A stretch of 64,000 bases of DNA. Origin: Squalus acanthias. Taxonomy: Eukaryota. Below, one piece after another: positions 26,004-63,816 of this stretch. The notes under the pieces are model-generated. The model was given only the letters and a program-made list of their open reading frames with translations, ran no database searches and was not told the origin of the DNA. The stretch covers positions 28,770,001-28,834,000 of the forward strand of contig CM059432.1 of NCBI GenBank assembly GCA_030390025.1, in the 5' to 3' direction. The number at the start of each line of letters is the position of its first letter. Position 1 is the stretch's first letter. The position numbers were made by a program, and so were the translations under genes.

Positions 26004-27179
26004 TTAAACACTTACAGCTACATGACTGAACTCAACACCTGTGTGCATGCAGAATCACAGATGAAGATCTGCATTCCAACACTGACAAAGTGCATTAGGG
26101 CATTCCAAAGATTAAGTGAGCAACACTGGTCTAGAACATTTGTAAGCTGTTCCAGTGCAGTAACCTTATTGGATCTGTTTGCACAAACATGTTGCAAAGG
26201 GAGGTTTGACCATTAATTGATTTATTTCACTTTTAAGAATATGTGTTTAAAGGTGGCTGCAGAACTCTTTAGAATGGTGTTCTTAAACAAAAGCGGTTTT
26301 GTAGCAGCAGTCGTCTGGTATCATGGTCAAGTGTAGAGCCTAGGCAGTGAACATAAATGGGTTATTTGACTATGGAGGTCATCACAGCCAATCCTGACCA
26401 TCTTCATCAGGTACCTAAATGCCCAATTTTATAGAAGGATCATTGCCTGGCAATCAGGTGTAGAAATCCTGACAGATTCTAATCCTCCCATTAATCCAGG
26501 ATCCACTGCCACACCAACTGAGATTAGTTTTTTTTTTAAAACAAATCGTTATTTAAAATTAATTCTCAGGATTTCGGCAACACTGGCAACGTCAAATTTA
26601 TTGCCCTTCCACAGTTGCCCAGAGAAGGTGGTGATGAGCCTTCTCTATTGAATTTTCCAGTCCTTGACTGATGGTACTTCCAAAATGGTATTAAGTAGGG
26701 AAATCCAGGACTTTTAACTGAGCGATGAAGGAATGGCAGTTTATTTTCAAGAGGAACATAACAGCTGAATTCTGATCCTGTCCTCATCAAATGTTCACAC
26801 ATGCACTTCCAGCAGGGATAAACTCAGCACAGACCATGGGTTAGCGGTGTGGCTCAGCTACACACAGGATAAACTCATTGAGCCATTTAAAAAAAAAACA
26901 TAAGGTCAAGTTTCATAATTCAGGTTGCTACCAGAGTTGAATAGAAAAGAGTGACAAATCAGAGTTTTATACCACAGGAGCTATCTACTTAATCACAATC
27001 CCCAAGCCCTTTTAAAGTTTCCTTTTTCAAATATTTATTCCCATCCTTTTGAAAAGCTATTATGCATTCTGCTTCCACCACTGTTCTGAGTTAGGGCCAT
27101 ACCATGTCCTAATTACCCTTGAGTAAAAAACACTAAGTTTGGTGATGGTCTTTTTGTGCTCTCTAGTTACCAACTCATT

Positions 27180-28080
27180 TGTCAGTGTGGTTGATAATGA
27201 AGAAGAAAGCTGTAGACTGCAGGAAGCTATCAATGAACTGGTCAGGTGGGCAGAACAGTGGCAAATGGAATTCAATCCTGAGAAGTGTGAGGTAATGCAT
27301 TTGGGGAGGGCCAACAGGCAAGGGAATACACATTAAATGGTAGGACACTGAGAAGAGTAGAGGAATAAAGGGACCTTGGAGTGCAGGTCCACAGATCCCT
27401 GAAGGTAGCAGGCCTAGTAGATAAGGTGGTTAAGAAGGCATATGGAATACTTGCCTTTATTAGCAGAGGCTTAGAATACAAGAACAGGGAGGTTATGCTT
27501 GAACTGTATAAAACACTAGTTAGGCCGCAGCTAGAATACTGCGTGCAGTTCTGGTCACCACATTACAGGAAAGATGTGATTGCACTAGAGAGGGTACAGA
27601 GGAGATTTACGAGGATGTTGCCTGGGCTGGGGAATTTTAGCTATGAGGAAAGATTGGATAGGCTGGGTTTGTTTTCTTTGGAACAGAGGAGGCTGAGGGG
27701 AGACCTAATTTGAGGTGTATAAAATTATGAGGGGCTTAGATAGAAAGGATAGGAAGGACCTATTTCCCTTAGCAGAAGGGTCAATAATCATGGGGCATAG
27801 ATTTAAAGTAATTGGTCGGAGGCTTAGAGGGGATGTGAGGGGAAATTTCTTCACCCAGGGGATGTTGGGGGTTCTGGAACTCACTGCCTGAAAGGGTGGT
27901 AGAGGCAGAAACCCTCATCACACTTAAAAAGTGCTTGGATTTGCACTTGAAGTGCCGTAACCTACAGGGCTACAGATCAAGAGCTGAAAAGTGGGATTAG
28001 GCTGGATAGCTCTTTGTCGGCCGGCACGGACAAGATGGGCTGAAAAGGCCTCCTTTCGTGCTGTAAATTTTTATGATTCT
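27180..28080 (+). mobile_element. CR1 LINE 3' fragment
   Basis: WQMEFNPEKCEVMH, RPQLEYCVQFWSP, 3' tail. Confidence 0.9.
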
Positions 28081-28368
28081 AAGTAGTTTCACTCCCCCCA
28101 CCCATTTACCTTATAAATTCTCAATTTAGAATAATTCAATCAAATATCCTCAACCTTCTCATGAAAAGGGCCCCAATCTAGAAGACTAGGTTAAGTAAAG
28201 TGGCAGTGACTAGATGTCACTGAGCTTGTTTTTAAAAGCCTATAGGTTGCAACAGGAAGGCAAAATGGAGTTCTACAAATTTGTGGCCTTGGGAAAGAAC
28301 AAGTCAATAAATCTTGTGCCTATTAAACCAAGAAGAAAATGATAGTCATTCTGTCAGAGAACACATAC

Positions 28369-28513
28369 CTTAAGTTTGGAACTCGGGTTGAGCATGATGT
28401 ATTTAATGAGTCCCTGGACATTTTCTGTCCATGATGCCAGCCAGGTTACTTTATTATCGAAACGCACCTCCTTCCACTCGTGATTTTCTGGGGGAACTGG
28501 GATCTGGGAATCC
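28369..28513 (-). CDS. TOP1MT: Topoisomerase IB core exon, 145 bp ([48 protein letters not shown])
   Basis: TTCAG acceptor, AAG|GTATG donor; ends SKLK (TOP1MT type) rather than SRIK (TOP1 type). Confidence 0.98.
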
Positions 28514-29627
28514 CTGAATAAAATAAGCTTAATTTAGAAAAACAGTCTGTCTGAACAGGTTAGATAGACTATCGCAAATTATATTTGTGAACTAGACTAC
28601 TCGGTGACAGATCAGCAGACTGGTTTCATTTAAATGTATAGAAGGTGACAGGGCAGCCTCCTGTATTGCATTCAGGATTTAAGATATCCTGAGTTCAGTG
28701 ATATTTTAAAGAGCCTTTACGACAAAGATTTTTTAGTACCTGGGTGCTTGGGTATAGAACTATAACTGATTATCTAACAAGGAAAAAGATTGCACTGACT
28801 ATGTATACAGCCCAACAGCCATTAGCTCCGAAAATATGCATGCCAGCAATCCCAGCATTTACGTTGGGTCATGTCTATCAATGCCTTTCTGCTGACCCTT
28901 CCGGAGACTGCAGGATCAGGAGGAGGGCACCTAAATTACATGGGGCTAATGGAAACCTGCCTGCCCCAAGCTGCTGTGAAATCCAGCCTCAACCTGCCAA
29001 GTCACCCCCACCACCAGAAACTTAGCAATTTGACTAGTGTAATACCCTTGCACAAGGGGACACTGAAAGTACCAACTTAATAATGCTACCAGATCTGCCT
29101 ATTTTTGATTGACGCTCCCTGCTGGGAGCAGGAGGCTAGTGAAATTACTTTTATAAAAAAAGAGAGACACAGAGAGAGACAGGTAAGTAAGTGCAGGTCT
29201 TTGTGTCTCTGCTTCTTTTCCTTTGGGTGACAAGTTATTTTCCCTTGCTTGGACTCCCAAGATGGGCCCCACTTCTGCTGGGTTACTTTGCGCTTCATAT
29301 AAAACAGCAAGGCAATTCCCCCCTCTGCACCCCACACAAATAGAAGTGATTGTCACAAGAAACAAGTGAAACTCAGCCACAACCATAGGTAAGGGTATTA
29401 AGGGATATTGAACCAAGGTGGATAAATGAAGTTGATACAGATCAGCCATGATCTAAGAGGAAAATAAGAACGGGAATAGGCCATGTTAAGCAATGGGATC
29501 AGTTCACATGTTCAAATGGCATGGGTGAGAGGAACAAGGTGGAAAGATAAAAGAGAGGACCTAAACAACAGGGCAGGCTGGATTCTCTGTATTGCTATTT
29601 CTTGCATTCATCACATAAACCACTTAC

Positions 29628-29815
29628 TTGCTGCAGTTGATAATAACATCTTCAGGCAAGATCCTTTTCTTTAGCTTTCCCATCTTTGGATGGTTGCCTC
29701 GCCCACGAAACAGCCCCGGTGGCTCAATTTTGAAGTTGGCGATTCTCTCCCGATGCCCATCCATTACACAGTAGCCATACTCCTCGGTGATTGCATCTTG
29801 CTCTAACTTTAGTTT
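29628..29815 (-). CDS. TOP1MT: Topoisomerase IB core exon, 188 bp ([62 protein letters not shown])
   Basis: CAG acceptor, GTAAGT donor; invariant [19 protein letters not shown] motif. Confidence 0.98.
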
Positions 29816-29919
29816 CTGTGGGGAAAGAGTGGACTTTCACTGGACAATTCTAAGTTTATTGAGATTTAGGGGTCCATGTACAGAAATCAAACTAGAGGAC
29901 AGGAACATTTTTTTTTTTT

Positions 29920-30655
29920 AAAAAGGCTAATGGAATGTTGGCCTTTATCTGAAGGGGGCCAAGGTGGATAAATTGGAGTTGATACAGATCAGCCATGATC
30001 TAATTGAATGGCGCAACAGCCTTCAGGGGCTGAGTGGCCTATTCCCGTTCCTATTTTCCTCTATTCAATTAGATCATGGCTGATCTGTATCAACTCCATT
30101 TATCCACCTTGGTTCAATATCCCTTAATACCCTTACCTAACAAAGATCTATCAATCTCAGTTTTGAAATTTTCAATTGACCTATCTTCAGCAATTTTTTT
30201 TTTTGGGGGGGAAAAGAGAGCTCCAGATTTCCACCACCCTTTGTATGAAGTAATGCTTCCTGATATCACCCCTGAACGTCCTAGCTCTAATTTTAAGATT
30301 TAGGCCCTCTTGTTCTAGACTCCCCCACCAGAGGAAATAGTTTCTTTTTATCTACCGTATCAAATCCTTTAATTATCTTAAATACCTCAATTAGTTCACC
30401 CCATAATCTTCTGCACTCAAAAGGAATACAAGTCTAATCTATGCAATCTGTCCTCATAATTTAACCCTTTTAGCCTGATACCATTCGGGTGAATCCGCAC
30501 TACTACCGAGGACAAAATATCCTGCCGGAGGTGCAGTGACCAGAACTGAACGCAGTACTCCAGGTGCAGTCTAATCAGAGCTTTATACAACTGTAGCATA
30601 ACGTCCACCCTTTTTTATTCCAGCCCCCATGAGATGAAGGCCAACATTCCATTCA
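29920..30655. mobile_element. Tail-to-tail CR1 3' fragments (+ about 29920-30060; - about 30063-30655)
   Basis: gatcagccatgatctaattgaat on both strands; LHLEYCVQFWS on the minus strand. Confidence 0.82.
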
Positions 30656-31251
30656 TTCCATTTTGTTTGTGAGGTCATCAGTACCATTGAGTAACGGTTT
30701 CAGTGCACTCATGTGATATGACTAGTGTCGTCTCTGGACTGGCAGTTTTGCACTTAGCAGTTTATGCTTTGTACATTTTTATGATTCAAACATTCAGAAA
30801 AGACTCAAAAGGCCACAAAATATTTTGGAAATGAATCCTAGAAGTCTGAAGCAAAAACCCCACTGCTGGTAATATGCACATCAGGTCAACCAATATTCAT
30901 CAGAGAAAAGGTTTATAAATATGTTGGGCAGGATTCACCAAATCTCAACTAACTTGTTAGAAATGGACTGCAAATAGTATAGCAAGACACATGCTTGCCA
31001 CAGCTGCACCAATATCAATATAGTCACCACAGCCAATCACTTCTGGATTTCTTCCCCACGTTCTGCCTTTGAACTCTAGCCTCAGACACATAGAAAATGT
31101 GCTGGATCACATCACCTGACTTAACCAGTATCAATCTACAGCCAGAATAGCAAGTATCTGAATTTATTTTATATAAAAACTTACATTTATTTACATAGTT
31201 TAATTTCACCATATTTGTTGTCTGTGCTATTTATGTTTTACTCATACTCAT

Positions 31252-32800
31252 AATATCTCCAAGTTTGCAGATGACACAAAGCTGGGTGGGCGTGTGTGTT
31301 GTGAGGAGGATGCAGAGAAAAGACATACATGCTCTCGAGGCAGTACAAAGAAGGTTCACTCGGTTAATCCCGGGGATGAGGGGGTGGACATACGAGGAGA
31401 GGTTGAGTAGATTGGGACTCTACTCATTGGAGTTCAGAAGAATGAGAGGCGATCTTATTGAAACATATAAGATTGTGAAGGGGCTTGATCGGGTGGACGC
31501 GGTGAGGATGTTCCCAATGATGGGTGAAACTAGAACTAGGGGACATAATCTTAGAATAAGGGGCTGCTCTTTCAAAACTGAGATGAGGAGAAACTTTTTC
31601 ACTCAGAGGGTAGTGGATCTGTGGAATTTGCTACCCCAGGAAGCTGTGGAAGCTACTTCATTAAATAAATTTAAAACAGAAATAGACCGTTTCCTAGAAG
31701 TAAAGGGAATTAGGGGTTACGGGGAGCGGGCTGGAAATTGGACATGAGTTTGAGTTCGGATCGGTCAAGGCCCTGTGGGTGGCGGAGCGGGCCCAGGGGC
31801 CGAGTGGCCTGGTCCTGCTCCTTCTTCTTCTTCGTGTTCTTTAGAGTTGAGGTTGGATCAGATCAGCCATGATCTCATTGAATGGCGGAGCAGGCTCGAG
31901 GGGCCGATTGGTCTACTCCTGCTCCTATTTCTTATGTTCTTATGTTCTTAAACTCCAGTATGATTTGGACAAGTTGGGTGATTGGGTAGATGCAGTATAA
32001 TGTGGATAAATGCGAGGTTATCCACTTTGGTGGCAAAAACAGGAAGGCAGATTATCTGAACGGCAATAGATTGGGAAAAGGGGAAGTGCAACGAGACCTG
32101 GGAGTCCTTGTGCACCAGTCGTTGAAGGTAAGCATGCAGATACAGCAAGCGGTTAAGGCGGCAAATGGTATGTTGGCCTTCATAGCGAGAGGATTCGAGT
32201 ACAGGAGCAAGGATGTCTTGCTGCAGTTGTACAGGGCCTTGGTGAGACCACACCTTGAGTATTGTGTGCAGTTTTGGTGGCCTTATCTGAGGAAGGATGT
32301 TCTTGCCATGGAGGGAGTGCAGCGAAGATTCACCAGACTGATACCTGGGATGGCAGGAATGACATATGAAGAGAGATTGGGACGATTGGGCTTGTATTCG
32401 CTAGAGTTTAGAAGAATGAGAGGGGATCTCATTGAAACTTATAAAATTCTAACAGGACTAGACAGACTGGATGCAGGAAGGATGTTCCCGATGGCAGGGG
32501 AGTCCAGAACCAGGGGTCACAGTCTAAGGATAAGGGGTAAGCCATTTAGGACTGAGATGAGGAGGAATTTCTTCACCCAGAGAGTGGTGAACCTGTGGAA
32601 TTCTCTACCACAGAAGGCAGTTGAGGCCAATTCATGAAATATATTCAAGAAGGAGTTAGATATATTTCTTAAGGCTAAAGGGATCAAGGGATATGGGGAG
32701 AAAGCAGGGACAGGGTACTGAATTTGGATGATCAGCCATGATCTCATTAAATGGCGAAGCTGGGCCGAATGGCCTACTCCTGCTCTTATCTATGTTTCTA
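31252..32800 (+). mobile_element. CR1 3' fragment (31252-31320 + 31950-32800) with a second CR1 3' fragment nested at about 31321-31949
   Basis: Host reads EEDAEK|LQYDLDKLG across the insertion; both pieces have 3' tails. Confidence 0.88.
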
Positions 32801-33569
32801 TTCTGCCTTTCTCTTCTGAAGACACCAAGGTAACGGCCCATGTACAGCAGTAGCCTGTTAGCACCTTAGCCAAGTGGTCAGTCCTTAAATGTGAGCTTTG
32901 ACAATCAGTGGAGTCAGCCTATTTGCTGACAGGAGCATCACATCCTATACTCACTATGTTCTCATGCACGGTCCTGCAGAAGTCACCCGATAGTGATCAG
33001 GAGTGAGAGTGCTGGATAATTTTGGCTTGCCTAGTCCTGGGGTGCTTAGGCCAATTATGCCATCCCTATTACTGCCCGTGGTACTGATCAGCTCACTCAA
33101 CACCAACTGGGAAGTGAACCTGGTCTGTATGGTTCAATTCCACACTGTCTTCATCAATGGAGCCATCAGCTTCTATTTGTTCTGTAAACAGAATGTGCAT
33201 CAGGGCAGCTGGTCAAAATAAGCTAGTCATGTTACAGACAAGGCGCCAACCTCATGAATCCTCCATTTCCATGTTCGCCATGAGGTGCTTTTTGCTCTGG
33301 GTAAGGGATACATTTTTGTATTCATTAAGTCGACTGATGTTGGCAGTAAGAAATTCAATCTTTTTTCAATTCTGTCACCACCGTCACTGACAGGTTAGGT
33401 ATAGCCAAGTTTAAATGCAGAGCAAAGATTTCTTTAATCTGTATCTCACACCAACTCCTACACCACCAGTGACATTTTTGCATTTCTCATACCAATCATC
33501 CTCTGGCCTCAGTGGGACTGGCTAATAATAATTGGTGCTAAGGCAGCAGTTTATGACGTCAGCCTATAT

Positions 33570-33925
33570 CTCATTGAAACATAAGATTCTGAGAGGACTT
33601 GACAGGGTAGATGCTGATCAGCTGTTTTCCCTGGCTGGAGAGTCTAGAACTAAGGAGCATAGTCTCAGGTTAAGGTGTTGGCCATTTAGGACTGAGATGG
33701 GGAGAAATGTCTTCACTCTTTGGAATTCTCTACCCCAGAAGGCAGTGGACTCTCCGTCGTTGAGTATATTCAAGTATATTCATAGATTTTTGGATTCTAG
33801 GGGAATCGAGGGATATGGGGATCAGACGGGAAAGTGGAGTTGAGGTCGAAGATCAGCCAATATCGTATTGAATGGCGGAGCAGGCTCGAGGGGTCTTTGG
33901 CCTACTCCTGCTCCTATTTCTTATG
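33570..33925 (+). mobile_element. Short CR1 3' fragment
   Basis: KILRGLDRVD...LWNSLPQKAV and 3' stem-loop. Confidence 0.85.
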
Positions 33926-34094
33926 CACAGTACAAAACTGGGCTGAGACTGTCTCAGGTCATTTCAAGTCTTACACCCAGAGACATTTTTTTTAAATAAA
34001 GTCAGTTGGATAAAAGCATGGAAATCCATGACTATGCTAAAGAATTTTCTAAGTAAGCTATTGATAAATGTAGGATTTTCGTTGGCCAGGCGGA

Positions 34095-34220
34095 GGTCAC
34101 CAACCTGAAACGTTAACTTTGCTTCTCTTGCCAGAGGCTGCCTGACCTGCTGAGTATTTCCAGCATTTTCTGTTTTATTTCAGATTTCCAGCATCTGCAG
34201 TATTTTGCTTTTGTATTAGA
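34095..34220 (+). repeat. Short interspersed repeat remnant, probably a Penelope-type pLTR
   Basis: cctgaaacgttaac...gacctgctgagtatttccagcattttctgttttatttcagatttccagcatctgcag; related pieces at about 565-650, 37800-37840 and 42350-42430. Confidence 0.5.
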
Positions 34221-34981
34221 GCTTATTGTGCAGATTGGCAGCAGCAAAGGCTTATGGAAGTATATGCAAGGATAGTGCTGGTATTTAACCAGCTGAAACC
34301 ACAAGTTGACAAGGACAGAGCACGAGTAAGCTTTCCCTCGCTAGTCTAACTAGGAACAGTTACGACTGAATGAAAGGGATTTCAATCTCCAGGGGTAGGT
34401 TATCCCATCAGGTCCCATTAATGCACCAGGCTGCCTGATCAATAATCAACAGTCCCTTGGAGTACTATGGAAGTGGAGAAGCCAACAGTAGAGATGGAGA
34501 GATTTTACCCCAACACATCAGTATGAACCAGGTTACCACAGAAGTTCACAGCAAACGAGGCAGCCATTTCAACTACTGAGTCTGTGCAGCCTCTTTGATG
34601 GAGCAATTCAAACAAATTCCACTACCGAACGCTCTCCCCATAACACTGTCTTAAAGAGTTTTCCCACAACTGATGTTAGACTAACTGGTCTCTAGTTACC
34701 TATTTTATCTTTCTCTCTCTTATTGATCAAAGATATTGTATTGGTTTATCTCCAATCCTATGACAAATTTGCATATTTATAGAGCAGACAAGTTTGGGCT
34801 CGACTGTGATGTGCCTCCCTGCTTGAACAGCTTGCTGGCATTCACTATCTAGGCTCACACATGAATAGTCATTTGGGTGAGCTGCCAATACCTGTTGGAT
34901 TGTACCCCAGCATGAATCAGTGCCCAAGGACAGGAGAGGAAGTTAGCAACAATTTCTTCTACTTGACAAATATATTCTCAC

Positions 34982-35104
34982 CTGCTTCTCCTCCTTGGGC
35001 AACGTTTTCTTGGCCTCTGCTTTTTCAGTGAAGTAGCGATGCAGGTTGCTGAAATCGCATTTATTTAGGTTGGTGATCATCATCCTCTCATACTCGTTCA
35101 TTTC
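34982..35104 (-). CDS. TOP1MT: Topoisomerase IB core exon, 123 bp (EMNEYERMMITNLNKCDFSNLHRYFTEKAEAKKTLPKEEKQ)
   Basis: CAG acceptor, CAG|GTGAG donor; KCDF..HRYF and EEKQ resemble TOP1MT. Confidence 0.96.
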
Positions 35105-37039
35105 CTGTACTCCAGAGGAAGTCCATAACAGTAAATGGGTTACGTTGCATTAGCAGACAGGATTCATCACTCAGATAGGCTCACAGCCTTTCATTTTTAT
35201 TACCTTCAGGATTTATTATGCAAAACTACTACTTGGGCACCAAATCATGCTACACGTAGTGGTGTAGAAAATCGTATCTGTCATGGAGAATAGTATTTGC
35301 ATAACGCCTTATAACCAATGAATTACCTTTGAAGTGCAGTGACTATTACATAAGCAAACTGAGCTGCTGAACTGCACACAACAAAATTCCAAATAATGTG
35401 GCAAGTGATTGTTGTGGGATATACGAACATATGAAAATAACAAGTCTGCCCCACTCGTGATGCCTGAAGCATAGTGATTAGACACCCCCTTCCCACCTGC
35501 AGCCATATAACCTCCTGGGAGAGGCCAAAAAAGAGAAAAGCCATAGAGCAATTTAGGGGCCAAAAATGTGGAAAATCTCTCTCCAATCCAGTTAAGGAAA
35601 TAAAATTAGTCCAGGAGACCACATTGATCATGCTTATATTACCTTGTTCACCCACCTTTTATAGGACGTGATCTCTGCTCCAGCCAGGAACTGGTTTAGT
35701 TCTCTTTTGAAAGTATGCTGAGGGTCTGGACCCACTGTACAACCTGGAAACTTGTTCCATGGGAAAAGACACACCTAACGCTAATCTGGTCCTACCTTTA
35801 CGTAATTTATACGCATGACCCCTGGTCTTCCCCAATCCCTCAGCAGGAAACATTATGCCGCTACAATCACGATGTAATGTACAATCACGAGAAAGTCCGT
35901 AACAATGAATGATGCAGTCAGTTATCAGAATCTATAGTGGGATGCAATTCATCGAAATAGCATGTACTCAAATTAACACTAACCCAAACAAGCTACTTAA
36001 ATTCTTTTACCTTAAAGAACTAACAGGACAGTGCAGTGATATTGTTTTTGACTTTTTTTTTTTAAATACTTAAAACCTATAGCATTGCTATATCTGTTCC
36101 ATTATACCTGCATGGTTCCGATGAGGCTCATCACCAGGTTGGGTACAAAATTCAATGAATCACCTCAGCATAATCCATGGTAGATACATTTGAAATGCTT
36201 ACAAAAGGTACAAGTATGCCACTTGATGGCATGAAGATCAAACGGAGTGGTATCATTAGACTATGTTATGTGTACTAATAGGAGACATGTTATTTTCAAA
36301 ATACCACAAATAGAAGAAACGCAATGTGTTAATACACAGAAACATAGTCCATGCATCAGTGGAAAAGGTCTCGATCTTGGCTGTGCAGTGTGTCACTGAA
36401 TAAAAGATTACTTCTCTGCAGAGACAAGGGGGGAATTAAATAGAAGGAACACTTCCCCATGTCTGTCAATTCTTGAAGAATTATCACTTCAACCCAATCT
36501 TCAACGGCACCATCACTGAGTTTCCCAGCATCAACATCCTGGGAGAAAATCACCAATGACCAGAAACTTGACTGGACCAGCCATCTCAATATGAGCAAAG
36601 CAGAGCAGAGCATGGCTACTATAAGTGGATCCCCTCCTGACTACTCAGAAGCCTCTCCTTCATACTACAGACTTCAGCCTTGTGGATGTTGAATACTCAC
36701 CTCTCATCTGGATGGGAACAGCTGCCAACAGAAGAAGCTGGACACCATCCAGGACAAAGCAGTTCACTTGATTGGTGCCCTTGCCACTGGACTCAAAATC
36801 CAGCCCCCCTCTACCACCAGTGCAATGTGGCTGCAGTACATACTAAAAACAGGATGCACTGCAGCAATTCACCAAGCTTAATTTGACAGCACCTGCCAGG
36901 CCCTTGATCTCCAACACCAGAGGGCAAAAACTGTAAAATCATGCAAGTGAATCACCTGCACGTTTCCTCCAAGTCACATCCCATTCTGACCTAGACATAT
37001 ACTGCTGTTTCTTCTTCATCACTAGGTCAAAATAAGCAC

Positions 37040-40000
37040 ATAACATAAGAATTAGGAGAAGGAGTAGGCCATACAGCCCTTCGAGCCTGCTCTGCCATTC
37101 AATAAGATCATAGCTGATCTTCACCTCAACTCTACTTTCCCGCCAGATACCCATATCCCTCGATTCCTCTATAGTCCAAAAATCTATCTATCTATCTCAG
37201 CCTTGAATATACTCAACGACGCAGCCGCCACAGCCCTTTGGGGTAGAGAATTCCAAAGATTCACAACCCTCAGGTGAAGAAATTCCTCTTCATCTCAGTC
37301 TTAAATGGCTGACCCCTTATCCTGAGACTATGCCCCCTAGTTCTAGACTCTCCAGCCAGGGGAAACAATCTCTCAGCATCTACCCTGTCAATCCCCCTCA
37401 GAATCTTGTAGGTTTCAATGAGATCACCTCTCATTCTTCTAAACTCTAGAGATTATAGGTCCAATCTACTCAATTTCTCCTCATAGGACAACCCTTTCAT
37501 CCCAGGAATCAATCTAGGGAACCTGCATTGCACCACCTCTAAGGTAAGTATGTCCTTCCTCAGATAAGGAGATCAAAACTGTGCACAGTACTCCATGTGT
37601 GGTCTCACCAAAGCTTTGTACAATTGTAGTAAGACTTCCTTACTCTTGTACTCCAACCCCCTTGCAATAAAGGCTAACATACCATTTGCCTTCCTAATTG
37701 CTTGCTGTACCTGCATGCTAACTTTGTGTTTCCTGTACAAGGACACCTAAATCTCTCTGAACACCAACATTTAATAGTTTCTCACAATTTAAAAAATATC
37801 CTGGCCTGCTGAGTTTTTCCAGCGTTTTCTGTTGTTATTTTAAAAAATATTCTGTTGTTCTATTCTTCCTACCAAAGTGAATAACCTTACTTTTCCCGAC
37901 ATTATACTCCATCTGCCACCTTATTGCCCACTTCTATGAACCTGTCTATATCCCTTTGCAGCCTTTGTGTCCTCCTCACAGTTTACTTTCCCACCTAGCT
38001 TTGTATCATCAGCAAACTTAGATACATTGCACTCAGTCCCTTCATCCAAGTCATTAATAAGGGAACAGTAGCATAGTGGTTATGCTACTGGACTAATAAT
38101 CCAGAGACGCAAGATCAAATCCCACCACGGCAGCCGTGGAATTTAAATTCAGTTAATTAAATAAAAATCTGGAATAATAAGCTAGTGGTGACCAGGAAAC
38201 TACCAGATTGTCTTAAAAACCCATCTGGTTCACTAATGTGCTTTAGGGAAGCAAATCTGCTGTCCTTACCTGGTCTAGCCGATGTGTGACTCCAGACCCA
38301 CAGCAATGTGGTTGACTGCCCTCTGAAATGGCCTAGCAAGCCACTCCGTTGTAATCAAACCGCTATAAGAAACAATAATAATAAAACCGGACGGATCACC
38401 TGGCATCGGCTTCGGTCATGACAACGGCACACCCAGCCCAGTCCATCCTGCAAAGTCCTCCTCCCTAACATCTGGGGACTTGTGCCAAAATTGGGAGAGC
38501 TGTCCCACAGACTAGTCAAGCAACAGCTCGACAGTCACACTCACAGAATCATACCTTTCAGCTAATGTCCCAGACTCCTCCACCACCATCCCTGGGTATG
38601 TCCTGTCCCACCGGCAGGACAGACCCACCAGAGGTGGTGGCACAGTGGTATACAGTCGGGAGGGAGTGGCCCTGGGAGTCCTCAACATTGATTCCGGACC
38701 CCATGAAGTCTCATGGCATCAGGTCCAACATGGGCAAGGAAACCCCCTGTTGAGTACCACCTACCGCCTTCCCTCAGCTGATGAATCAGTACTCCTCCAT
38801 GTTGACCACCACTTGGAAGAAGCACTGAGGGTAGCAAGGGCACAGAATGTACTCCACCACAATTTGTAACCTCATGGGGACTTCAATGTCCATCACCAAG
38901 AGTGGCTCGGTAGCACCACCGCTGACCGAGTTGGCTGAGTCCTGAAGGACATAGCTGCCAGACAGCCTGCAGCAGGTGGTGAGAGGGCCAACATGAGGGG
39001 AAAATCCTACTCGACCTCGTCTTAACCAATCTAGTGGAGACAAAGTCCCGTCTTCACACGGAGGACACCCTCCATTGTGTTGTGTAGCACTACCACCATG
39101 CTAAATGGCATAGATTCAGAACAGATCTAGCAGCTGAAATCTGGGCATCCATGGGCCATCAGCAGAATTATAATCTATCACAATCTGTAACCTCCTGGCC
39201 CGGCATATCCCTTACTCTACCATTATCAAGCTAGGCGACCAACTATGGTTCAATGAGGAGTGTAGAAGAGCATGCCAGGAGCAGCACCAGGCGTACCTAA
39301 AAATGAGGTGCCAACCTGGGAAGCTGCAACACAGGACTACATGTATGCTAAACAACAGAAGCAGCATGTAATAGACAGAGCTAAGCGAGCCTACAATCAA
39401 CAGATCAGATCAAAGCTCTGCAGTCCTGCCACATCCAGTCGTGAATGGTGGTGGAAAATTAAACAACTAATGGGAGGAGGAGGCTCCATGAATATCCCCA
39501 TCCTCAATGATGGCGGAGCTCAGCACGTGCGTGCGTGCAAAAGACAAGGCTGAAGCATTTGCACCCATCTTCAGCTAGAGGTGCCGAGTGGATGATCCAT
39601 CTCGGCCTCCTCCTGAGGTCTCCACCATCACAGAAGCCAGTCTTCAGCCAATTCGATTCACTCCACGTGATAAAGAAATGGCTGCGCACACTAGATACAG
39701 CAAAGGCTATGAACCCCGACAACATCCCAGCTGTCGTGCTGAAGACTTGTGCTCCAGAACTAGCCTCGCCTCTAGCCAAGCTGTTCCAGTACAGCTACAA
39801 CACCGGCATCTACCTGACAATGTGGAAAACTGCCCAGGTATGTCCCATCCACAAAAACCAGGACAAATCCAATCCAGCCAATTACCACCCAATCAGTCTA
39901 CTCTAAATCATCAGCAAAGTGATGGAAGGTGTTGTCGACAGTGCTATCAAGTAGCCCTTACTCACCAACAACCTGCTCACCGATGCTCAGTTTGGGTTCC

Positions 40001-42055
40001 GTCACGACCACTCGGCTCCAGACCTCATTACAGCCTTAGTCCAAACATGGACAAACGAGTTGAATTCCAGAGGTGAGTGGAGAGTGGCTGCCCTTGACAT
40101 CAAGGCAGCATTTGACCAAGTGCGGCATCAAGGAGTCCTAGTAAAATTGACGTCAAAAGACTCTCCACTGGCTGGAGTCATACCTAGCACAAAGGACGAT
40201 GGTTGTGGTTGTTGGAGGCCAATCATCTCAGCCCCAGGGCATCGCTGCAGGAGTTCCTCAGGGCAATGTCCTCGGCCTAACCATCTTCAGCTGCTTCATC
40301 AATGACGTTCCCTCCATCATAAAGGTCAGAAATGGGGATGTTCGCTGATGATTGCAGTGTTCAGTTCCATTTGCAACTCCTCAGATAATTAAACAGTCTA
40401 TGCCTGTATGTAGCTAGACCTGGACGACATTCAGGTTTGAGCTGATAAGTGTCAAGTAACATTCGCGCCACACAAGTGCCAGGCAATGGCTATCGCCAAC
40501 AAGAGAACATCTAACCACATCGCCAAATCCCCCAATATCAACATCCTGGGGGTCATCATTGACCAGAAACTTAACTGGACCAGCCACAAATACTGTGGCA
40601 ACAAGAGCAGGTCAGAGGCTGGGTATTCTGTGGTGGGTGTCCTGACTCCCCAAAGTCTTTCCACCATCTACAAGGCACAAGTCAGGAGTGTGATGGAATA
40701 CTCTCCACTTGCCTAACGAGTGCAGCTCCAACACTCAAGAAGCTCGACACCATCCAGAACAAAGCAGCTCGCTGGATTGGCACCCTATCCACCACCTTAA
40801 ACCTTCACTCCCTCCACCACCAGCATACCGTGGCTGCAGTGTGTACCATCTACAAGATGCACTGCAGCAACTCGCGGAGGCTTCTTCGACAGTACCTCCC
40901 AAACCCATGACCTCTACCACCTAGACGGCCAAGGGCAGCAGGCGCATGGGAACACCATCACCTCAAAGCTCCCCTCCAATCACACACCATCCTGACTTAG
41001 AAATATATGACCGTTCCTTCATAGTTGCTGGGTCAAAATCCTTGAACTCCCTCCCTAGCAGCACTGTGGGAGTACCTTCACCATGTGGACTGCAGCGATT
41101 CAAGAAGGTGGTTCACCACCACCTTCTCAAGGGCAATTAGGGATGGTCAATAAATGCTGGCCTTGCCAGTGACACCCACATCCCAGGAACTAATACAAAA
41201 AGACATTATAAATAGCTGAAGTCCAAGCACTGATCCTTGCAGCACCCCACTAGTTACAGCCTGCCAACCGGAAAATGACCCATTTATCCCCCTCTGTTTT
41301 CTATCCGTTAACCAATCCTCTATCCATGCTAATATATTACCCCCAACCCCATGAGCCCTTATCTTGCATAGCAACCTTTTATGTGGCACCTTATCGAATG
41401 CCTTTTGGAAATCTAAATATACTACATCCACTGGTTCCCTTTTATCCACCCTGCTAGTTACATTCTCAAAAAACTCTAATAATTTGTTAAACACGATTTC
41501 CCTTTTAATAAATCTGTGTTGACTCTGCCTAATCATATGATGATTTAAGTGCCCTGTACTACTTCCTTAATAATGGATACCAGCATTTTCCCCAATGACT
41601 GATATCAGGCTAACTGGCCTTTCGTTCCCAGTTTTCTCTCTCCCTCCTTTCTTGAATAGCGGGGTTACATTTGCTACCTCCCAATCCGCTGGGACGGTTC
41701 TCGAATCTAGGGAATTTTGAAATATCACAACCAATGTATTCACTATCAATTGAATGTATTTTCATTGAGAATTTGGAAATATTTCTTTAAGTGTCTGCCA
41801 CTGCTTATCTACAGTCATACCTTTTAATCTAATTTCCCAATCTACCTTAGCCAACTCACCACTCATACTCATAATTGGCTTTATTTAAGTTTAAGACTCT
41901 TGTTTCAGACTGAAGTATTTCACACACAAACTCAATATGAAATTCTATCATATTATGATCACTCTTCCCCAGAAGATCCTTTACTGTGAGATTACAAATT
42001 AACCCTGTCTCATTACACAATACAAGATCTAAAATAGCCTGTTCCCTGGTTGGTT
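37040..42055 (-). mobile_element. CR1 LINE (about 37040-38060 and 41205-42055) split by the tRNA-headed LINE
   Basis: Host sequence tcatccaagtcattaata...aaatagctga continues across the insertion; LDFQKAFDKVPH and EPTREQAILDLV remnants. Confidence 0.87.
38061..41200 (+). mobile_element. Degenerate ~3.1-kb non-LTR retrotransposon: tRNA/SINE-like head followed directly by an APE-EN + RT region
   Basis: A-box-like TAGCATAGTGG (38069) and B-box-like AGATCAAATCC; then IPGYVLSHRQDRPTRGGGTVVY, GDFN, DIKAAFD, GVPQG, FADD remnants; 3' AATAAA...cccacatcc tail. Confidence 0.85.
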
Positions 42056-42712
42056 CCATTATGTATCATGGAATGCCTTACCTATCATTATTGTGGGATC
42101 TGCAGTGGTTCAAGGCAGCCCACTAACCCCACCTACTCAAGTGAACTAGGGATGGGCAATAAAAGTGTTGCCTGTATCCCGAGAACAAATAATAAAAAAG
42201 CGCAAAGTACTGTTCATACTGTGGACCAGCTCAGATTCAGTTCAGAGAATGCTAAAAATATACAGTTGGTCTGTTAGCACCTGCAACAGTAAAGGCAGAT
42301 GCAGACTGAACTTTGCACTCAATTTGATTAAGTTTCTAAACCCAAAATGGTAATTTGTCTTTTCTCTTTACTGATGCTGACAGGATTTCTAGCATTTTCA
42401 GTTTTAAATTCACATTTGCAGTTTTTCTATTTATCTTAGATTCCATTCATCCTGATTAAAAAAAGCTGATATTTAAAAAGGAAATGTCTAGGGACATCAA
42501 ATTAAAAAATGTGAAAACCATCTCTTACTCAGGACCTCATAACTGTGGAACTCCTTGCCTCCCTCAGTCTTCCAATCTACGGGCTTTTAAAGTCCAAACT
42601 TCACATTACCTAATCAATATTTCTTAGGACTATCATCTTCAATCCTACTCTTATCAACTTTGGCCTTGACTCATCATCTAGGTTTCTCAATTAAAACAAA
42701 AGTAAAACACAC

Positions 42713-42834
42713 CTTCCGCCAGTCGTTAAAGAAGTTTTGTCTGAAGACGTCTTTTGTAGTGTAATCATGATCCAGCATCTTGGCGAAGAAGGTGGCCACT
42801 TCTTCTGCTGCGAGACTCAACTTCATTTGATTTC
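42713..42834 (-). CDS. TOP1MT: Topoisomerase IB core exon, 122 bp ([40 protein letters not shown])
   Basis: TAG acceptor, AAG|GTGTG donor; AAEEVATF and NFFNDWRK are TOP1MT-type residues. Confidence 0.97.
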
Positions 42835-44676: not shown

Positions 44677-44792
44677 CATTGTAACAGAAATCAACGTCAA
44701 AAGGAAGTGGCTCATATTTGGGTGCAAACAATGGACCTTTGTGTTCCAGAAACATCCATTTTACGCCATCCTCATAGTGTTCCTCTTCCCAC
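44677..44792 (-). CDS. TOP1MT: Topoisomerase IB core exon, 116 bp (WEEEHYEDGVKWMFLEHKGPLFAPKYEPLPFDVDFCYN)
   Basis: CAG acceptor, G|GTGAGT donor; LEHKGP.FAP.YEPLP TOP1 motif. Confidence 0.97.
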
Positions 44793-53174: not shown

Positions 53175-53305
53175 CTTTTTCCTGCAAAATGTGCTTTCTG
53201 AAGAACAGAAACTGTGCATCTTAAAGTCCTCAAAGATAAATAAGTGTGCTTAATGTTGAAGTTAGCAAAGGCTAGTTTTGTTACAGCAGCCACACATCTG
53301 AACAT
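53175..53305 (-). CDS. TOP1MT: Candidate alternative first coding exon encoding a mitochondrial targeting presequence (MFRCVAAVTKLAFANFNIKHTYLSLRTLRCTVSVLQKAHFAGK+R)
   Basis: ATG at 53305-53303; 131 nt open (43 codons + 2 nt); donor AAG|GTAGGT; phase 2 fits the 44792 acceptor (AG+G = Arg, then WEEE). No Asp/Glu; rich in R/K/L/A/S/T. Confidence 0.75.
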
Positions 53306-53638
53306 AACAAAACACTGTCGTTGCAGAGATCCCCAGAGGTTAGCTTACTTCAAAACACACTGCACTGAAAAAGAAAACCCCCACACATAAAACACTCGCT
53401 TCACTCATTACTGCTACATTTTGAACTTTCAACCTGGAAACAGTTCCTGTGGTCCTGCTAATTTTTTCCCCTACAGACAACACATTTCTGCACATGGTAA
53501 CTGATCCTACAGACTAGCACAAGCCTCGCTTTCAGTTCCTAGTGAATGAGTGTTTTTTTTGTGCGTGTGTGAGTGAACAGGGAGGAGAGAGAAAACAGGG
53601 TGATGAAGAAAAAGGAATAAACAGCCTCACTTATTGTT

Positions 53639-54725: not shown

Positions 54726-54895
54726 CATTTCCATTTATCTGCATCTTTTTTCTTCTCTTCCTCCCCTTTCAATTGGGTCTTGCTTTTATCACGCTTCAAT
54801 TTCTGCTTTGACCCCTTCTTCTCTTTGACCTCGATCTTCACGCTCTTCTTTACCTTCTCTGATTCCCTTCTTGATGCCTTGCTTGCAGATGATGT
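54726..54895 (-). CDS. TOP1MT: Topoisomerase IB gene, Lys-rich N-terminal exon (170 bp; TSSASKASRRESEKVKKSVKIEVKEKKGSKQKLKRDKSKTQLKGEEEKKKDADKWKW)
   Basis: AACAG acceptor, TG|GTGAG donor, open frame. Joined to the 44792 exon it gives KWKWWEEE, the TOP1 N-terminal/core junction motif. Confidence 0.9.
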
Positions 54896-63752: not shown

Positions 63753-63816
63753 CTGAGGTATTTCATCATCCTCAACAGCTTCCTCCACTTTCAGCTTCTT
63801 GGGTTTGGCCACTGAC
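63753..63816 (-). CDS. TOP1MT: Topoisomerase IB gene, upstream Lys/Glu-rich N-terminal exon (64 bp; SVAKPKKLKVEEAVEDDEIPQ); further exons lie beyond the right edge
   Basis: TTTTAG acceptor and CAG|GTATG donor; ends in phase 0, matching the start of the 54895 exon; charged KPKK-type composition like nuclear TOP1 N-termini. Confidence 0.75.

What the first reader, a model, noticed from the sequence alone, without database searches (positions are those of the whole stretch)
53175..53305. Hidden mitochondrial-presequence exon: one topoisomerase IB gene with alternative nuclear-type and mitochondrial N-termini
Seen: inside the intron between the Lys-rich exon (ends 54726, phase 2) and the first core exon (44792) is an ATG-initiated 43-codon frame, MFRCVAAVTKLAFANFNIKHTYLSLRTLRCTVSVLQKAHFAGK. 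It ends at a strong AAG|GTAGGT donor in exactly the phase that gives ...GKR-WEEEH. It has no acidic residues and many R/K/hydrophobic/hydroxylated ones. It is below the 60-aa ORF cutoff, so the track misses it. Established: mammalian TOP1MT has one first exon of about 40 codons encoding the targeting peptide, joined to the core at this same R|W position. Inference: this locus makes both a mitochondrial isoform and a long nuclear-type isoform by alternative first-exon use, possibly the ancestral dual-targeted state before TOP1 and TOP1MT specialised. A pyrimidine-rich acceptor-like site (TTTTCTTTTTCAG) precedes 53364, so the exon may follow a non-coding leader. Splicing the 54726 exon onto that site would hit a stop.
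Basis: partly seen in the sequence, partly recalled or inferred. Interest (0 to 1): 0.9.

Follow-up and report, generated by a model that had tools for sequence, protein, structure and literature searches.

The report
Alternative mitochondrial first exon of TOP1MT
A small exon hidden in an intron of a shark topoisomerase gene is real and conserved, and it lets one gene make both a short, probably mitochondrial enzyme and a long, nuclear-type one, an arrangement that database gene models suggest is ancient in vertebrates.

Summary
On the minus strand an ATG at 53305 opens 43 codons that end at AAG|GTAGGT (exon end 53175), in the phase that reads ...GKR-WEEEH into the core exon at 44792.

A frame like this alone is no more than chance: 1 seen against 1.17 expected in shuffled intron. 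Three things show it is a real exon:
- The peptide aligns almost without gaps in 10 other sharks and rays.
- RefSeq models in 4 elasmobranchs pair a 603-615 aa form with an 881-914 aa form on an identical 560-aa core.
- Transcript-like contigs from 4 runs (2 studies) start about 110-130 bases upstream of the ATG and leave the genome exactly at the donor.

The gene is the TOP1MT-type paralogue. The genome holds a separate TOP1 next to MafB, while this gene is linked to MafA.

The Lys-rich ...KWKW exon (54895-54726) belongs to a long isoform that also appears in contigs.

The same long/short pair is modelled in bichirs, mormyrids and platypus, so the dual design looks ancestral to TOP1MT rather than shark-specific.

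The proposed non-coding leader acceptor at 53364 is read straight through. Mitochondrial and nuclear localisation are inferred, not tested. I found no paper describing this.

The parts
53175..53305 (-). Coding part of the alternative first exon: ATG plus 43 codons plus 2 bases. It encodes a basic, acid-free presequence-like N-terminus. The donor GT lies at 53174-53173.
   Evidence: sequence, splice phase. (homologous N-termini in 10 other elasmobranchs). (contigs cover it and leave the genome at the donor).
53306..53437 (-). 5' untranslated part of the same exon as seen in contigs (5' ends at 53414, 53415, 53418 and 53437). It holds two upstream ATGs: 53419, followed at once by TAG, and 53408, a 22-codon uORF with its stop at 53342-53340.
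   Evidence: table 8 (records 7, 14, 23, 32). (sequence, ORF list). The contig ends are only a weak hint of the transcription start.
53365..53377 (-). Acceptor-like TTTTCTTTTTCAG. It is not used in the contigs seen, and joining the KWKW exon here would give a stop after 8 codons.
   Evidence: sequence. (four contigs bridge it colinearly, with at least 49 letters on the shorter side).
53229..53230 (-). AG of an internal acceptor-like site inside the exon (tatctttgAG|GACTTTAAG). Used after the KWKW exon it would stay in frame (W-TLRCTVSVLQKAHFAGKR-WEEEH).
   Evidence: sequence. (the Scyliorhinus torazame model P0095 has ...KWKW-TLRCTFSVVQRAEFAVKR-WEEEH). No use was seen in this species.
54726..54895 (-). 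Last N-terminal exon of the long isoform (170 bases). It is Lys-rich, ends ...KKKDADKWKW, and has the same splice phase as the short first exon.
   Evidence: boundaries. (tblastn with P0003). (contigs cover 54723-54895 exactly and go on at both ends).
63753..63816 (-). Penultimate N-terminal exon of the long isoform (64 bases), encoding ...SVAKPKKLKVEEAVEDDEIPQ with a basic cluster like KPKKIKTED of the genome's own TOP1 paralogue.
   Evidence: boundaries. (match to P0003). (sequence of the C11 paralogue).
44677..44792 (-). First shared core exon (116 bases, WEEEHYEDGVKW...), the acceptor for both alternative N-termini.
   Evidence: (one contig per run covers 44723).
694..42834 (-). Eight further core exons inside the window: 42834-42713, 35104-34982, 29815-29628, 28513-28369, 17851-17708, 5300-5115, 1074-1006 and 808-694. 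The last four core exons and the stop lie up to 4.5 kb before the window start.
   Evidence: GT-AG at every junction; exon sizes equal to those of the TOP1 paralogue. (Pfam Topoisom_I_N and Topoisom_I on three window exons).

Best explanation
Window 53305-53175 (minus strand) is the coding part of a real, conserved alternative first exon of this shark's TOP1MT-type topoisomerase IB gene. The gene has two starts.

Long isoform. A far-upstream start lies beyond the window end, and N-terminal exons were traced to 25 kb past it. It gives a roughly 900-residue isoform. Its long, charged N-terminal domain is encoded by many small exons, the last two being 63816-63753 and 54895-54726 (...KWKW).

Short isoform. 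A second start lies inside the last N-terminal intron, about 110-130 bases upstream of the ATG at 53305. It gives a 604-residue isoform in which 43 codons plus a split Arg replace that whole domain.

Both 5' parts splice in the same phase to the same 13-exon core, whose first exon is 44792-44677. Transcripts from the upstream start skip the short exon because it has no used acceptor.

The short N-terminus is basic and acid-free. It has the same length and the same R|W junction as the presequence exon of tetrapod TOP1MT. It most likely directs import into mitochondria. The long isoform lacks it and carries TOP1-like basic clusters, so it most likely stays outside mitochondria, probably in the nucleus.

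Shown: the exon, phase, conservation, presence in transcript-like contigs, paralogue identity and linkage. Inferred: both localisations and the position of the second promoter.
For: Sequence and splicing:
- ATG, open frame, AAG|GTAGGT donor and phase.
- A 14-exon, 604-aa reading with GT-AG at all 13 junctions. The core exon sizes are 116,122,123,188,145,144,186,69,115,128,95,150,100. From the second core exon on they equal those of the paralogue.

Conservation:
- 603-615 aa models begin with a homologous peptide in 10 other elasmobranchs (5 sharks, 5 batoids).
- They are 48-70% identical to the window, with one gap in total, 0-1 acidic and 6-10 basic residues, and M1, R3, R29, K43 and R44 invariant.
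- Long and short RefSeq isoforms share an identical 560-aa core in 4 of 4 elasmobranch pairs.

Contigs, 4 runs from 2 studies:
- Records 7, 14 and 23 lie on 53173-53437/53418/53415 from their first letter, then carry 27 more letters beyond the donor.
- Record 32 (1,823 letters) lies on 53414-53173 and then has 1,581 further letters. Its depth figure, 68.1, equals that of the only contig of that run at 44723.
- Records 8, 15 and 24 lie exactly on 54723-54895, with 26 letters beyond the donor and 862, 245 and 162 letters upstream.

Paralogue identity:
- Only two loci in the genome match two core exons.
- The C11 locus sits inside the TOP1 clade (99 SH-aLRT). The window's gene sits in a separate elasmobranch clade (100) outside it.
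- A Maf gene lies 1.0 Mb from this gene. None of its 120 best hits is named MafB. The named ones are MafA or MafAa, apart from three named Maf or Maf-like.
- The Maf gene 0.58 Mb from C11 falls in a MafB cluster.
- By equal contig length, MafA shares a chromosome with this gene type in 5 elasmobranchs and Polypterus, and with a frog's named TOP1MT.

Long isoform constraint:
- Its N-terminal domain matches the other 10 elasmobranch long models compared at 49-76% identity over 179-338 aligned residues (E 6e-46 to 8e-131).

Broader pattern:
- Identical-core long (KWKW) and short (R|W) pairs occur in Polypterus, Erpetoichthys, Paramormyrops, Brienomyrus and platypus: 5 of 6 pairs tested were identical.
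- Scleropages shows the same pair apart from one skipped segment.
Against: - No targeting predictor could be run. The maximal helical hydrophobic moment of the peptide (0.45) is reached by 39% of its own shuffles, so amphipathicity is not demonstrated.
- The runs are not on record as RNA; the tool marks the kind as a guess.
- The joint table was cut (414 joints not shown), and the joint 53175->44792 is not printed. The link to 44792 rests on the letters running on past the donor and on one matching depth figure.
- Contig depth cannot rank the isoforms.
- The 5' untranslated part holds two upstream ATGs (53419, 53408), which could damp translation from 53305.
- The core-domain tree does not decide whether the elasmobranch clade is sister to tetrapod TOP1MT. 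Holding all non-TOP1 vertebrate rows together gives p-AU 0.89, but holding the elasmobranch clade with TOP1 gives 0.83.
- NAPRT and EEF1D, neighbours of TOP1MT in human by my recall, lie on another chromosome here.
- In human cells, Top1mt sent to the nucleus interacts poorly with mitotic chromosomes (PMC2770673, abstract). A nuclear role for the long form is therefore not self-evident.
- Most comparative evidence is automated gene models, not cloned cDNAs.
Confidence: 0.8

Rival explanations
1. The exon is simply the ordinary exon 1 of TOP1MT. The upstream Lys-rich exons are a decaying relic, or read-through from upstream, that gives transcripts but no working long protein. On this view the gene is functionally mitochondria-only, as in human.
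For: - Human Top1mt forced into the nucleus interacts poorly with mitotic chromosomes, and the core domains are adapted to their compartment (PMC2770673, abstract).
- The genome already has a full TOP1.
- Contig depth cannot show how much long transcript or protein exists.
Against: - The long N-terminal domain stays open and matches the other 10 elasmobranch long models compared at 49-76% identity over 179-338 aligned residues.
- A 53-residue motif in it is found in 14 chondrichthyan long models.
- The KWKW end keeps the splice phase.
- A contig carries 862 letters upstream of the KWKW exon plus 26 letters beyond its donor.
- The KWKW-type N-terminus is modelled on TOP1MT-type cores from sharks to platypus.
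Confidence: 0.1
2. The short isoform is real, but its N-terminus is not a mitochondrial presequence. It might give a cytosolic or nuclear short enzyme, or serve some other sorting or regulatory role.
For: - The hydrophobic moment is no better than shuffles.
- No predictor was run.
- 3 of 214 random ATG frames in the window have the same crude composition.
- The upstream ATGs in the leader complicate translation.
Against: - The peptide has the same position, length (43-44 residues) and R|W junction as the N-termini of named TOP1MT in Anolis and platypus.
- It has 0-1 acidic and 6-10 basic residues in all 11 elasmobranch peptides.
- The genome offers no other topoisomerase IB gene to serve mitochondria: only two loci.
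- The other locus, TOP1, was searched with the peptide and showed no such exon. The peptide has one match in the genome.
Confidence: 0.07
3. The stretch is mainly an internal cassette. It would be entered from the KWKW exon through the internal acceptor at 53230-53229, as in the Scyliorhinus torazame model. That would add 18 residues to the long isoform rather than start a short one.
For: - Model P0095 reads ...KWKW-TLRCTFSVVQRAEFAVKR-WEEEH.
- The window keeps a pyrimidine-rich AG at that place, and the join stays in frame.
Against: - All four contigs over the exon begin upstream of the ATG. They run colinear with the genome from 53414-53437 through the internal site to the donor.
- The RefSeq short isoforms of 10 species start at the Met.
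- The conserved first 25 residues would have no reason to be kept.
- This could still exist as a minor form.
Confidence: 0.03

Closest known systems
Mammalian TOP1MT (mitochondrial DNA topoisomerase IB of human and mouse)
   Same: - A type IB core in 13 exons.
- One 5' exon of about 40 codons giving a basic N-terminal targeting peptide joined at R|W. N-terminal lengths are 42-43 in the Anolis and platypus TOP1MT models.
- The MTS is given as residues 1-40 of human TOP1MT in PMC10081982, Table 3.
- Linkage to MafA. The human map position is recalled, not tested.
- It lies outside the TOP1 clade.
   Different: - Here the same gene also carries upstream exons for a long charged domain ending KWKW, and contigs and gene models show that form. 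The papers read describe TOP1MT as having only a short N-terminus and exclusive mitochondrial residence (PMC10081982 introduction; PMC9638942 passages).
- The presequence itself shows no obvious likeness to the tetrapod ones beyond length, charge and junction, as far as the printed N-termini show; no alignment was made.
Nuclear TOP1
   Same: - The long isoform has TOP1's layout: many small 5' exons for a Lys/Glu-rich unstructured domain, a KPKK-type basic cluster, and a ...KWKW|WEEE junction into the same core exon set.
   Different: - The window's gene is not TOP1. The genome's TOP1 is on another chromosome beside MafB.
- The long N-terminal domain is about 350 residues in elasmobranch models, against about 190-210 in the shark TOP1 models.
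- It holds a motif found only in chondrichthyan long forms.
- TOP1 has no presequence exon. The peptide has one match in the genome.
TOP3A, and yeast TOP1: one gene serving nucleus and mitochondria
   Same: - One gene yields a form with and a form without a mitochondrial targeting N-terminus. TOP3A does this with two translation starts (PMC9638942, introduction passage).
[quoted passage not shown]
   Different: - Here the choice is made by alternative promoters and first exons, not by alternative start codons on one transcript.
- It happens in a gene that is already one of two paralogues. Both textbook strategies, duplication and alternative decoding, are therefore combined. They are set against each other in PMC12718117 (introduction passage).

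Membership tests
Eukaryotic type IB DNA topoisomerase (Pfam Topoisom_I_N, Topoisom_I, Topo_C_assoc) | DNA-binding fragment and catalytic core domains | tested here: met
   Three window exons score above the Pfam cut-offs on their own. 29815-29630 scores Topoisom_I_N at 101 bits. 17851-17708 and 5300-5115 score Topoisom_I at 61.9 and 86.1 bits. The orthologous models P0004 and P0003 carry all three domains end to end.
Eukaryotic type IB DNA topoisomerase (Pfam Topoisom_I_N, Topoisom_I, Topo_C_assoc) | Intact reading frame through the C-terminal active-site region (motif ...SKLNYLDPRI...; that it holds the catalytic tyrosine is recalled) | tested here: met
   The spliced reading is open from ATG to stop. 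It contains the motif in the exon 3.6-3.8 kb before the window start.
TOP1MT (vertebrate mitochondrial topoisomerase IB) | Not a member of the TOP1 clade; the second of two vertebrate paralogues | tested here: met
   The genome has two loci only. The C11 locus lies inside the TOP1 clade (99). The window's gene lies in a separate clade (100) outside it.
TOP1MT (vertebrate mitochondrial topoisomerase IB) | Groups with named tetrapod TOP1MT in a tree | tested here: inconclusive
   The quick tree leaves a polytomy. The AU tests reject neither grouping: 'all non-TOP1 together' gives p 0.89 and 'elasmobranch clade with TOP1' gives p 0.83. The first is better by about 3 log-likelihood units.
TOP1MT (vertebrate mitochondrial topoisomerase IB) | Conserved linkage to MafA (TOP1 is linked to MafB) | tested here: met
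   A MafA-type gene lies 1.0 Mb away on the same chromosome. A MafB-type gene lies 0.58 Mb from the TOP1 locus. MafA and named TOP1MT share a contig in the frog Anomaloglossus. The human linkage is recalled, not tested. NAPRT/EEF1D linkage is not kept.
TOP1MT (vertebrate mitochondrial topoisomerase IB) | One 5' exon of about 40 codons joined at R|W to a 13-exon core | tested here: met
   The exon has 43 codons plus a split Arg, followed by 13 core exons. N-termini of 42-43 residues ending in R before WEEE are seen in the Anolis and platypus TOP1MT models. The paper that defines the 13-exon motif was not held, so its exon sizes were not compared.
TOP1MT (vertebrate mitochondrial topoisomerase IB) | The N-terminus works as a mitochondrial targeting sequence | not testable with these tools
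   Composition fits: 8 basic and 0 acidic residues, and the same holds in 11 of 11 elasmobranch peptides with 0-1 acidic. The hydrophobic moment was inconclusive. No predictor or experiment was available.
TOP1MT (vertebrate mitochondrial topoisomerase IB) | A short N-terminus only; enzyme dedicated to mitochondria (as described for mammals) | tested here: not met
   The same locus encodes a long Lys-rich N-terminal domain that joins the same core.
TOP1 (nuclear topoisomerase IB) | Membership of the TOP1 clade | tested here: not met
   the TOP1 clade (17 rows, 99) holds the genome's C11 locus, not the window's gene. The best hits of the C11 exon are shark and tetrapod TOP1 of about 770 aa.
TOP1 (nuclear topoisomerase IB) | A long charged N-terminal domain with nuclear localisation signals, ending KWKW | tested here: inconclusive
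   The domain and the KWKW end are present in the long isoform. A basic cluster KPKKLKVEE resembles KPKKIKTED of the C11 TOP1. NLS function was not tested.

The most novel reading that the evidence does not exclude
The TOP1MT paralogue was born as a two-promoter gene, and in most vertebrate lineages it still is one. It makes a second, TOP1-like long (nuclear) enzyme and, from an intronic first exon, the mitochondrial enzyme. Such models are seen in sharks, rays, bichirs, mormyrids, a frog, a snake and platypus. On this reading the 'mitochondria-only' TOP1MT of human and mouse is a late loss of the upstream exons. It is not the state that followed the duplication. The textbook case of 'duplicate, then gain a targeting signal' would then really be a case of slow subfunctionalisation that sharks still show half-way.
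Probability: 0.5. Interest if true: 0.8.

Novelty: new variant of a known kind. Interest (0 to 1): 0.62.

Why it matters
TOP1 and TOP1MT are used as the standard example of solving the 'two compartments' problem by gene duplication followed by gain of a mitochondrial signal. [quoted passage not shown]

This locus uses both at once. It is one of two paralogues, yet it still makes two N-terminal forms on one core.

If the long form is a working nuclear enzyme, cartilaginous fishes, and by the gene models many other vertebrates, have two nuclear-type topoisomerases IB. The dedication of TOP1MT to mitochondria would then be a late, lineage-specific event.

That bears on three questions:
- How the core domains adapted to mitochondrial DNA (PMC2770673).
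- How evolutionary rates of TOP1MT are read (PMC10081982 treats its N-terminus as a short MTS only).
- How automated names such as 'topoisomerase 1-like' and 'mitochondrial-like' should be assigned to isoforms of one gene.

It is directly testable with reporter fusions and cell fractionation.

Tried and rejected
- No RNA holder listed. The tool marks all holders as 'RNA?', a guess. Stretches of the laid region without contig cover, such as non-repeat intron bins, are noted here only and are not used as evidence.
- The joints table was dominated by repeats and cut (414 not shown), so the joint 53175->44792 could not be read off.
- Helical hydrophobic moment as a test of a presequence: 0.45 against a shuffle mean of 0.43, with 39% of shuffles as high. 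Not informative.
- Tree-based orthology. The quick tree left a polytomy, and both constrained trees beat it. The free search was poor, and the deep node is not resolved by 560 columns.
- Synteny with NAPRT and EEF1D, recalled neighbours of human TOP1MT. Both lie together on another chromosome, C4.
- A BRO1-domain gene lies at C8:30.18 Mb and could be rhophilin-1, but it was not named.
- Protein atlas look-up of the neighbouring Maf gene could not tell MafA from Maf or MafB: scores 0.98, 0.98 and 0.97.
- I thought the conserved motif of the shark long N-terminus (...SCQESFEDML...) resembled a stretch of the frog long model. A profile of it hits 14 chondrichthyan long forms of 303 proteins and nothing else at E up to 0.1. 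The likeness is not supported.
- The GC-rich, CpG-rich stretch 56750-57750 looked like a promoter for the short form. It is a copy of a dispersed repeat: 10,065 first-look candidates, and 40 of 40 scored copies are about 78-85% identical.
- The Lys-rich exon as a query finds only itself in the genome. The four other matches have E of 5.5 or more.
- Earlier notes of this scan: nothing near the place or by words.
- The paper defining the 13-exon motif was not held.
- Five literature searches gave no paper on long or dual TOP1MT isoforms in sharks or fishes. Only listings were read for most hits, and subscription papers are not covered.
Full report
**What is at the coordinates**

On the minus strand an ATG at 53305 opens the frame MFRCVAAVTKLAFANFNIKHTYLSLRTLRCTVSVLQKAHFAGK. 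Two further bases (AG) follow, then AAG|GTAGGT, so the exon ends at 53175.

The window holds a large minus-strand gene for a type IB topoisomerase. Protein-to-genome matching with two shark models, followed by a splice-site search, gives a 14-exon, 604-residue reading. It starts at this ATG and has GT-AG at all 13 junctions.
- The first shared exon is 44792-44677 and begins G|TGG GAA.
- The split codon therefore reads Arg, and the protein runs ...GKR-WEEEHYEDGVKW.
- The gene ends 4.5 kb before the window start.
- Three window exons score above the Pfam cut-offs for the DNA-binding fragment and the catalytic core.

It ends ...AAA TG|gtgag in the same phase. Upstream of it lies a 64-base exon, 63816-63753. 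Five more N-terminal exons lie up to 25 kb beyond the window end.

The tract TTTTCTTTTTCAG ends at 53365, and joining the 54726 exon to 53364 gives a stop after eight codons (read).

**Is it more than chance?**

Not by itself. It is the only ATG frame of 35 or more codons in the 9,933-base intron that ends at a GTRRG donor in the right phase. Shuffled introns, however, give 1.17 such frames on average (200 shuffles, maximum 5).

Its composition (no acidic, 8 basic residues) is shared by 3 of 214 ATG frames of that length in the window. The case rests on what follows.

**Conservation**

A search with one core exon returned elasmobranch models in two size classes (5,797 proteins at E<=0.001, best 120 listed).
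- Long forms of 814-918 residues have N-terminal domains ending ...KWKW before WEEE.
- Short forms of 603-615 residues begin with a peptide plainly homologous to the window's.
- Cluster look-ups added more.

Eleven elasmobranch peptides (window, 5 other sharks, 5 batoids) align with a single one-residue gap.
- They are 48-70% identical to the window.
- They carry 0-1 acidic and 6-10 basic residues.
- M1, R3, R29, K43 and R44 are invariant.
- For the Rhinoraja model, 11 residues upstream of the aligned Met were left out.

In Heterodontus, Rhinoraja, Pristis and Chiloscyllium punctatum the long and short RefSeq isoforms lie on the same contig. Their 560-residue cores are letter-for-letter identical: 4 of 4 pairs. 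The exon is thus already present in automated annotation of relatives. It is 'hidden' only from an ORF-length filter.

**Transcript-like contigs**

Eight runs of two studies are marked 'RNA?', a guess by the tool. None of the listed holders is on record as RNA. These eight hold 0.37-0.70 of the sampled words of 53150-53420. The three best hold 0.70, about the share that 53175-53364 makes of the query.

Four runs were laid on 44500-64000.

The short exon:
- In three runs of one study, contigs of 292, 273 and 270 letters lie from their first letter on 53437, 53418 and 53415. They run down to 53173 and then carry 27 more letters that do not follow the genome.
- In a run of the other study, a contig of 1,823 letters lies on 53414-53173 and goes on for 1,581 letters. 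Its depth figure (68.1) equals that of the single contig of that run at 44723, inside the first core exon.
- The two extra aligned letters are expected, because the next exon also starts GT.

The KWKW exon:
- Contigs lie exactly on 54723-54895.
- They have 26 letters beyond the donor and 862, 245 or 162 letters upstream. One of them is in plus orientation, which fixes which side is which.

So both 5' parts occur in spliced form. Each leaves the genome at its donor and overhangs by 29 letters in all. That is what a word graph gives when two paths merge into a shared exon. That last step is my inference.

The printed joint table was cut, so the joint to 44792 is not shown as such.

All four contigs bridge the acceptor-like site at 53364 colinearly. 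The proposed non-coding leader is therefore not supported. The contig 5' ends are only a weak hint that transcription starts near 53415-53440.

The leader holds two upstream ATGs: 53419, followed at once by a stop, and 53408, a 22-codon frame.

**Which gene is it?**

Two core exons each find exactly two loci in the 3.7-Gb genome: this one and one on contig C11. The presequence-like peptide finds only this locus.

The C11 gene has the same core exon sizes. The best hits of one of its exons are shark and tetrapod TOP1 of about 770 residues (856 proteins, best 120 listed).

I built a 48-row tree. It used 46 database proteins, picked by hand for taxon spread from the roughly 240 listed, plus the two spliced readings. 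The rest were left out.
- The C11 gene falls inside a TOP1 clade (SH-aLRT 99).
- The window's gene falls in a separate elasmobranch clade (100) outside it.
- The deep node is unresolved. AU tests reject neither 'all non-TOP1 vertebrate rows together' (p 0.89) nor 'elasmobranch clade with TOP1' (p 0.83).

Linkage helps.
- A Maf gene lies 1.0 Mb from this gene. None of its 120 best listed hits is named MafB. The named ones are MafA or MafAa, apart from three called Maf or Maf-like.
- The Maf gene 0.58 Mb from the C11 gene sits in a cluster named MafB.
- By equal contig lengths, MafA shares a chromosome with this gene type in five elasmobranchs and Polypterus, and with the named TOP1MT of a frog.
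- By the same measure, MafB shares one with TOP1 in five elasmobranchs.
- That human TOP1MT lies by MAFA and TOP1 by MAFB is my recollection, not a tool result.
- NAPRT and EEF1D, which I recalled as further neighbours, are on another chromosome here.

I file the gene as the TOP1MT-type paralogue. The sister relation to tetrapod TOP1MT remains unproven by the tree.

**Beyond sharks**

The same pair, a Lys-rich N-terminus ending KWKW or a 43-48-residue basic N-terminus ending in R, appears on identical 560-residue cores in:
- RefSeq models of Polypterus, Erpetoichthys, Paramormyrops, Brienomyrus and platypus (689 and 603 residues). 5 of 6 pairs tested were identical; the sixth long model lacks 41 core residues.
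- Scleropages transcripts, apart from one skipped segment.

Long KWKW or KWRW-type models also exist for two frogs and a rattlesnake. One frog model and the rattlesnake model group with named tetrapod TOP1MT; the other frog model shares a 90%-identity cluster with its species' named TOP1MT. The snake model has a long branch, and one frog model is flagged low quality.

The elasmobranch long N-terminal domain is conserved: 49-76% identity over 179-338 aligned residues. Its most conserved motif is found only in 14 chondrichthyan long forms of 303 proteins searched. The long domains of different classes are thus alike in kind and junction, not in detectable sequence.

**How it most likely works**

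Two promoters drive the gene.
- The upstream one gives the long isoform. Its transcripts skip the short exon because that exon has no used acceptor.
- The intronic one gives a transcript whose first exon supplies the ATG and a basic, acid-free N-terminus.
- Both join the same core in the same phase.

By position, length, charge and junction the short N-terminus corresponds to the targeting exon of TOP1MT, and the genome has no other candidate for a mitochondrial type IB enzyme. I therefore infer mitochondrial import.

The long form lacks that peptide and carries a KPKKLKVEE cluster like KPKKIKTED of the genome's own TOP1. I therefore infer nuclear residence.

Neither localisation was testable here. 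A hydrophobic-moment test was uninformative.

An internal AG at 53230-53229 would allow an in-frame 18-residue insert in the long form, as one catshark model has. I saw no sign of this in the contigs.

**Literature**

What I saw in each paper:
- PMC10081982 (outline, section 11 and term passages read): an evolutionary study of TOP1 and TOP1MT in chordates. It treats the TOP1MT N-terminus as a short MTS and does not contain the words shark, Chondrichthyes or isoform.
- PMC12718117 (one passage): uses TOP1/TOP1MT as the example of duplication plus gain of a signal, as opposed to alternative decoding of one gene.
- PMC2770673 (abstract): reports that Top1mt sent to the nucleus interacts poorly with mitotic chromosomes.
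- PMC9638942 (passages): describes exclusive mitochondrial TOP1MT in human cells, and TOP3A as a one-gene, two-start case.

Five searches gave no paper on dual TOP1MT isoforms in sharks or fishes. The library lacks most subscription papers, and the paper that defines the 13-exon motif was not held.

**Verdict**

The main interpretation stands with two corrections: the genome has a separate TOP1, and there is no leader splice at 53364.

The exon is known to annotation pipelines in relatives. As far as my searches reach, the design it reveals is undescribed, and it seems old and widespread: a TOP1MT paralogue that keeps a TOP1-type long isoform beside the mitochondrial one.

Noticed in passing
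window 56750-57750: A GC-rich (0.55-0.69), CpG-rich (observed/expected about 0.8) stretch inside the long isoform's intron looks like a CpG-island promoter. It is in fact a copy of a dispersed repeat: 10,065 first-look candidates in the genome, and 40 of 40 scored copies are about 78-85% identical over the full 500 bases.
   Followed up: yes
window 53626-53676: A 46-50-base core, identical or nearly so at hundreds of places in the genome (980 first-look candidates), lies about 190 bases upstream of the contig 5' ends of the short first exon. The rest of 53306-53625 is unique. Similar translated motifs (…PPQSNTGISAS) recur near 3262-3300 and 5434-5594. It is probably the conserved core of a SINE. 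Whether it contributes to the intronic promoter is open.
   Followed up: partly
window 53340-53419: Two upstream ATGs lie in the leader of the short isoform. ATG 53419 is followed at once by TAG. ATG 53408 opens a 22-codon frame ending at 53340, 35 bases before the main ATG. They may regulate translation of the short form.
   Followed up: no
window 53228-53230; protein P0095: A catshark gene model joins the KWKW exon to the last 18 codons of the short exon through an internal acceptor. The window keeps the AG and the frame. This may be a third, minor isoform or an annotation artefact.
   Followed up: partly
G000:C8:29821049-29821888 (L025) and G000:C11:12874274-12875191 (L026): Single-exon MafA-type and MafB-type genes lie 1.0 Mb and 0.58 Mb from the two topoisomerase IB paralogues. 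A third large Maf gene on C6 has no such neighbour. This is a tidy remnant of the duplicated block that gave TOP1 and TOP1MT.
   Followed up: yes
beyond the window end, window coordinates 89092-88973 (locus L016): The exon encoding ...SCQESFEDML.GMD..LKEFCARKQKNKDRKHKEREK is the best conserved part of the long N-terminal domain (90% identity to Pristiophorus). A profile of it hits only chondrichthyan long isoforms (14 of 303 proteins). Its function is unknown.
   Followed up: partly
proteins P0255, P0269, P0009, P0394, P0399: RefSeq also models a third isoform class (519-548 residues) in sharks, rays and bichirs. It starts at an internal Met of the core (MFLEH...) and has neither N-terminal part.
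   Followed up: no
tree: Ray-finned fishes show two separate non-TOP1 groups. One includes Polypterus and holds both short and long forms. The other is a teleost group of about 747-residue proteins named 'mitochondrial', all with ...RWRW ends. Their relation to each other and to TOP1MT is unresolved.
   Followed up: no
window introns, e.g. 41566-41150, 19426-18893, 2640-1673: The introns are packed with reverse-transcriptase-like open frames of LINE-type elements. Contigs of the laid runs pile up on them at depths in the thousands.
   Followed up: no
G000:C4:172777439-172810336: NAPRT-type and EEF1D-type exons lie 33 kb apart on contig C4. That pair is kept together but is not linked to the TOP1MT-type gene in this genome.
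   Followed up: no
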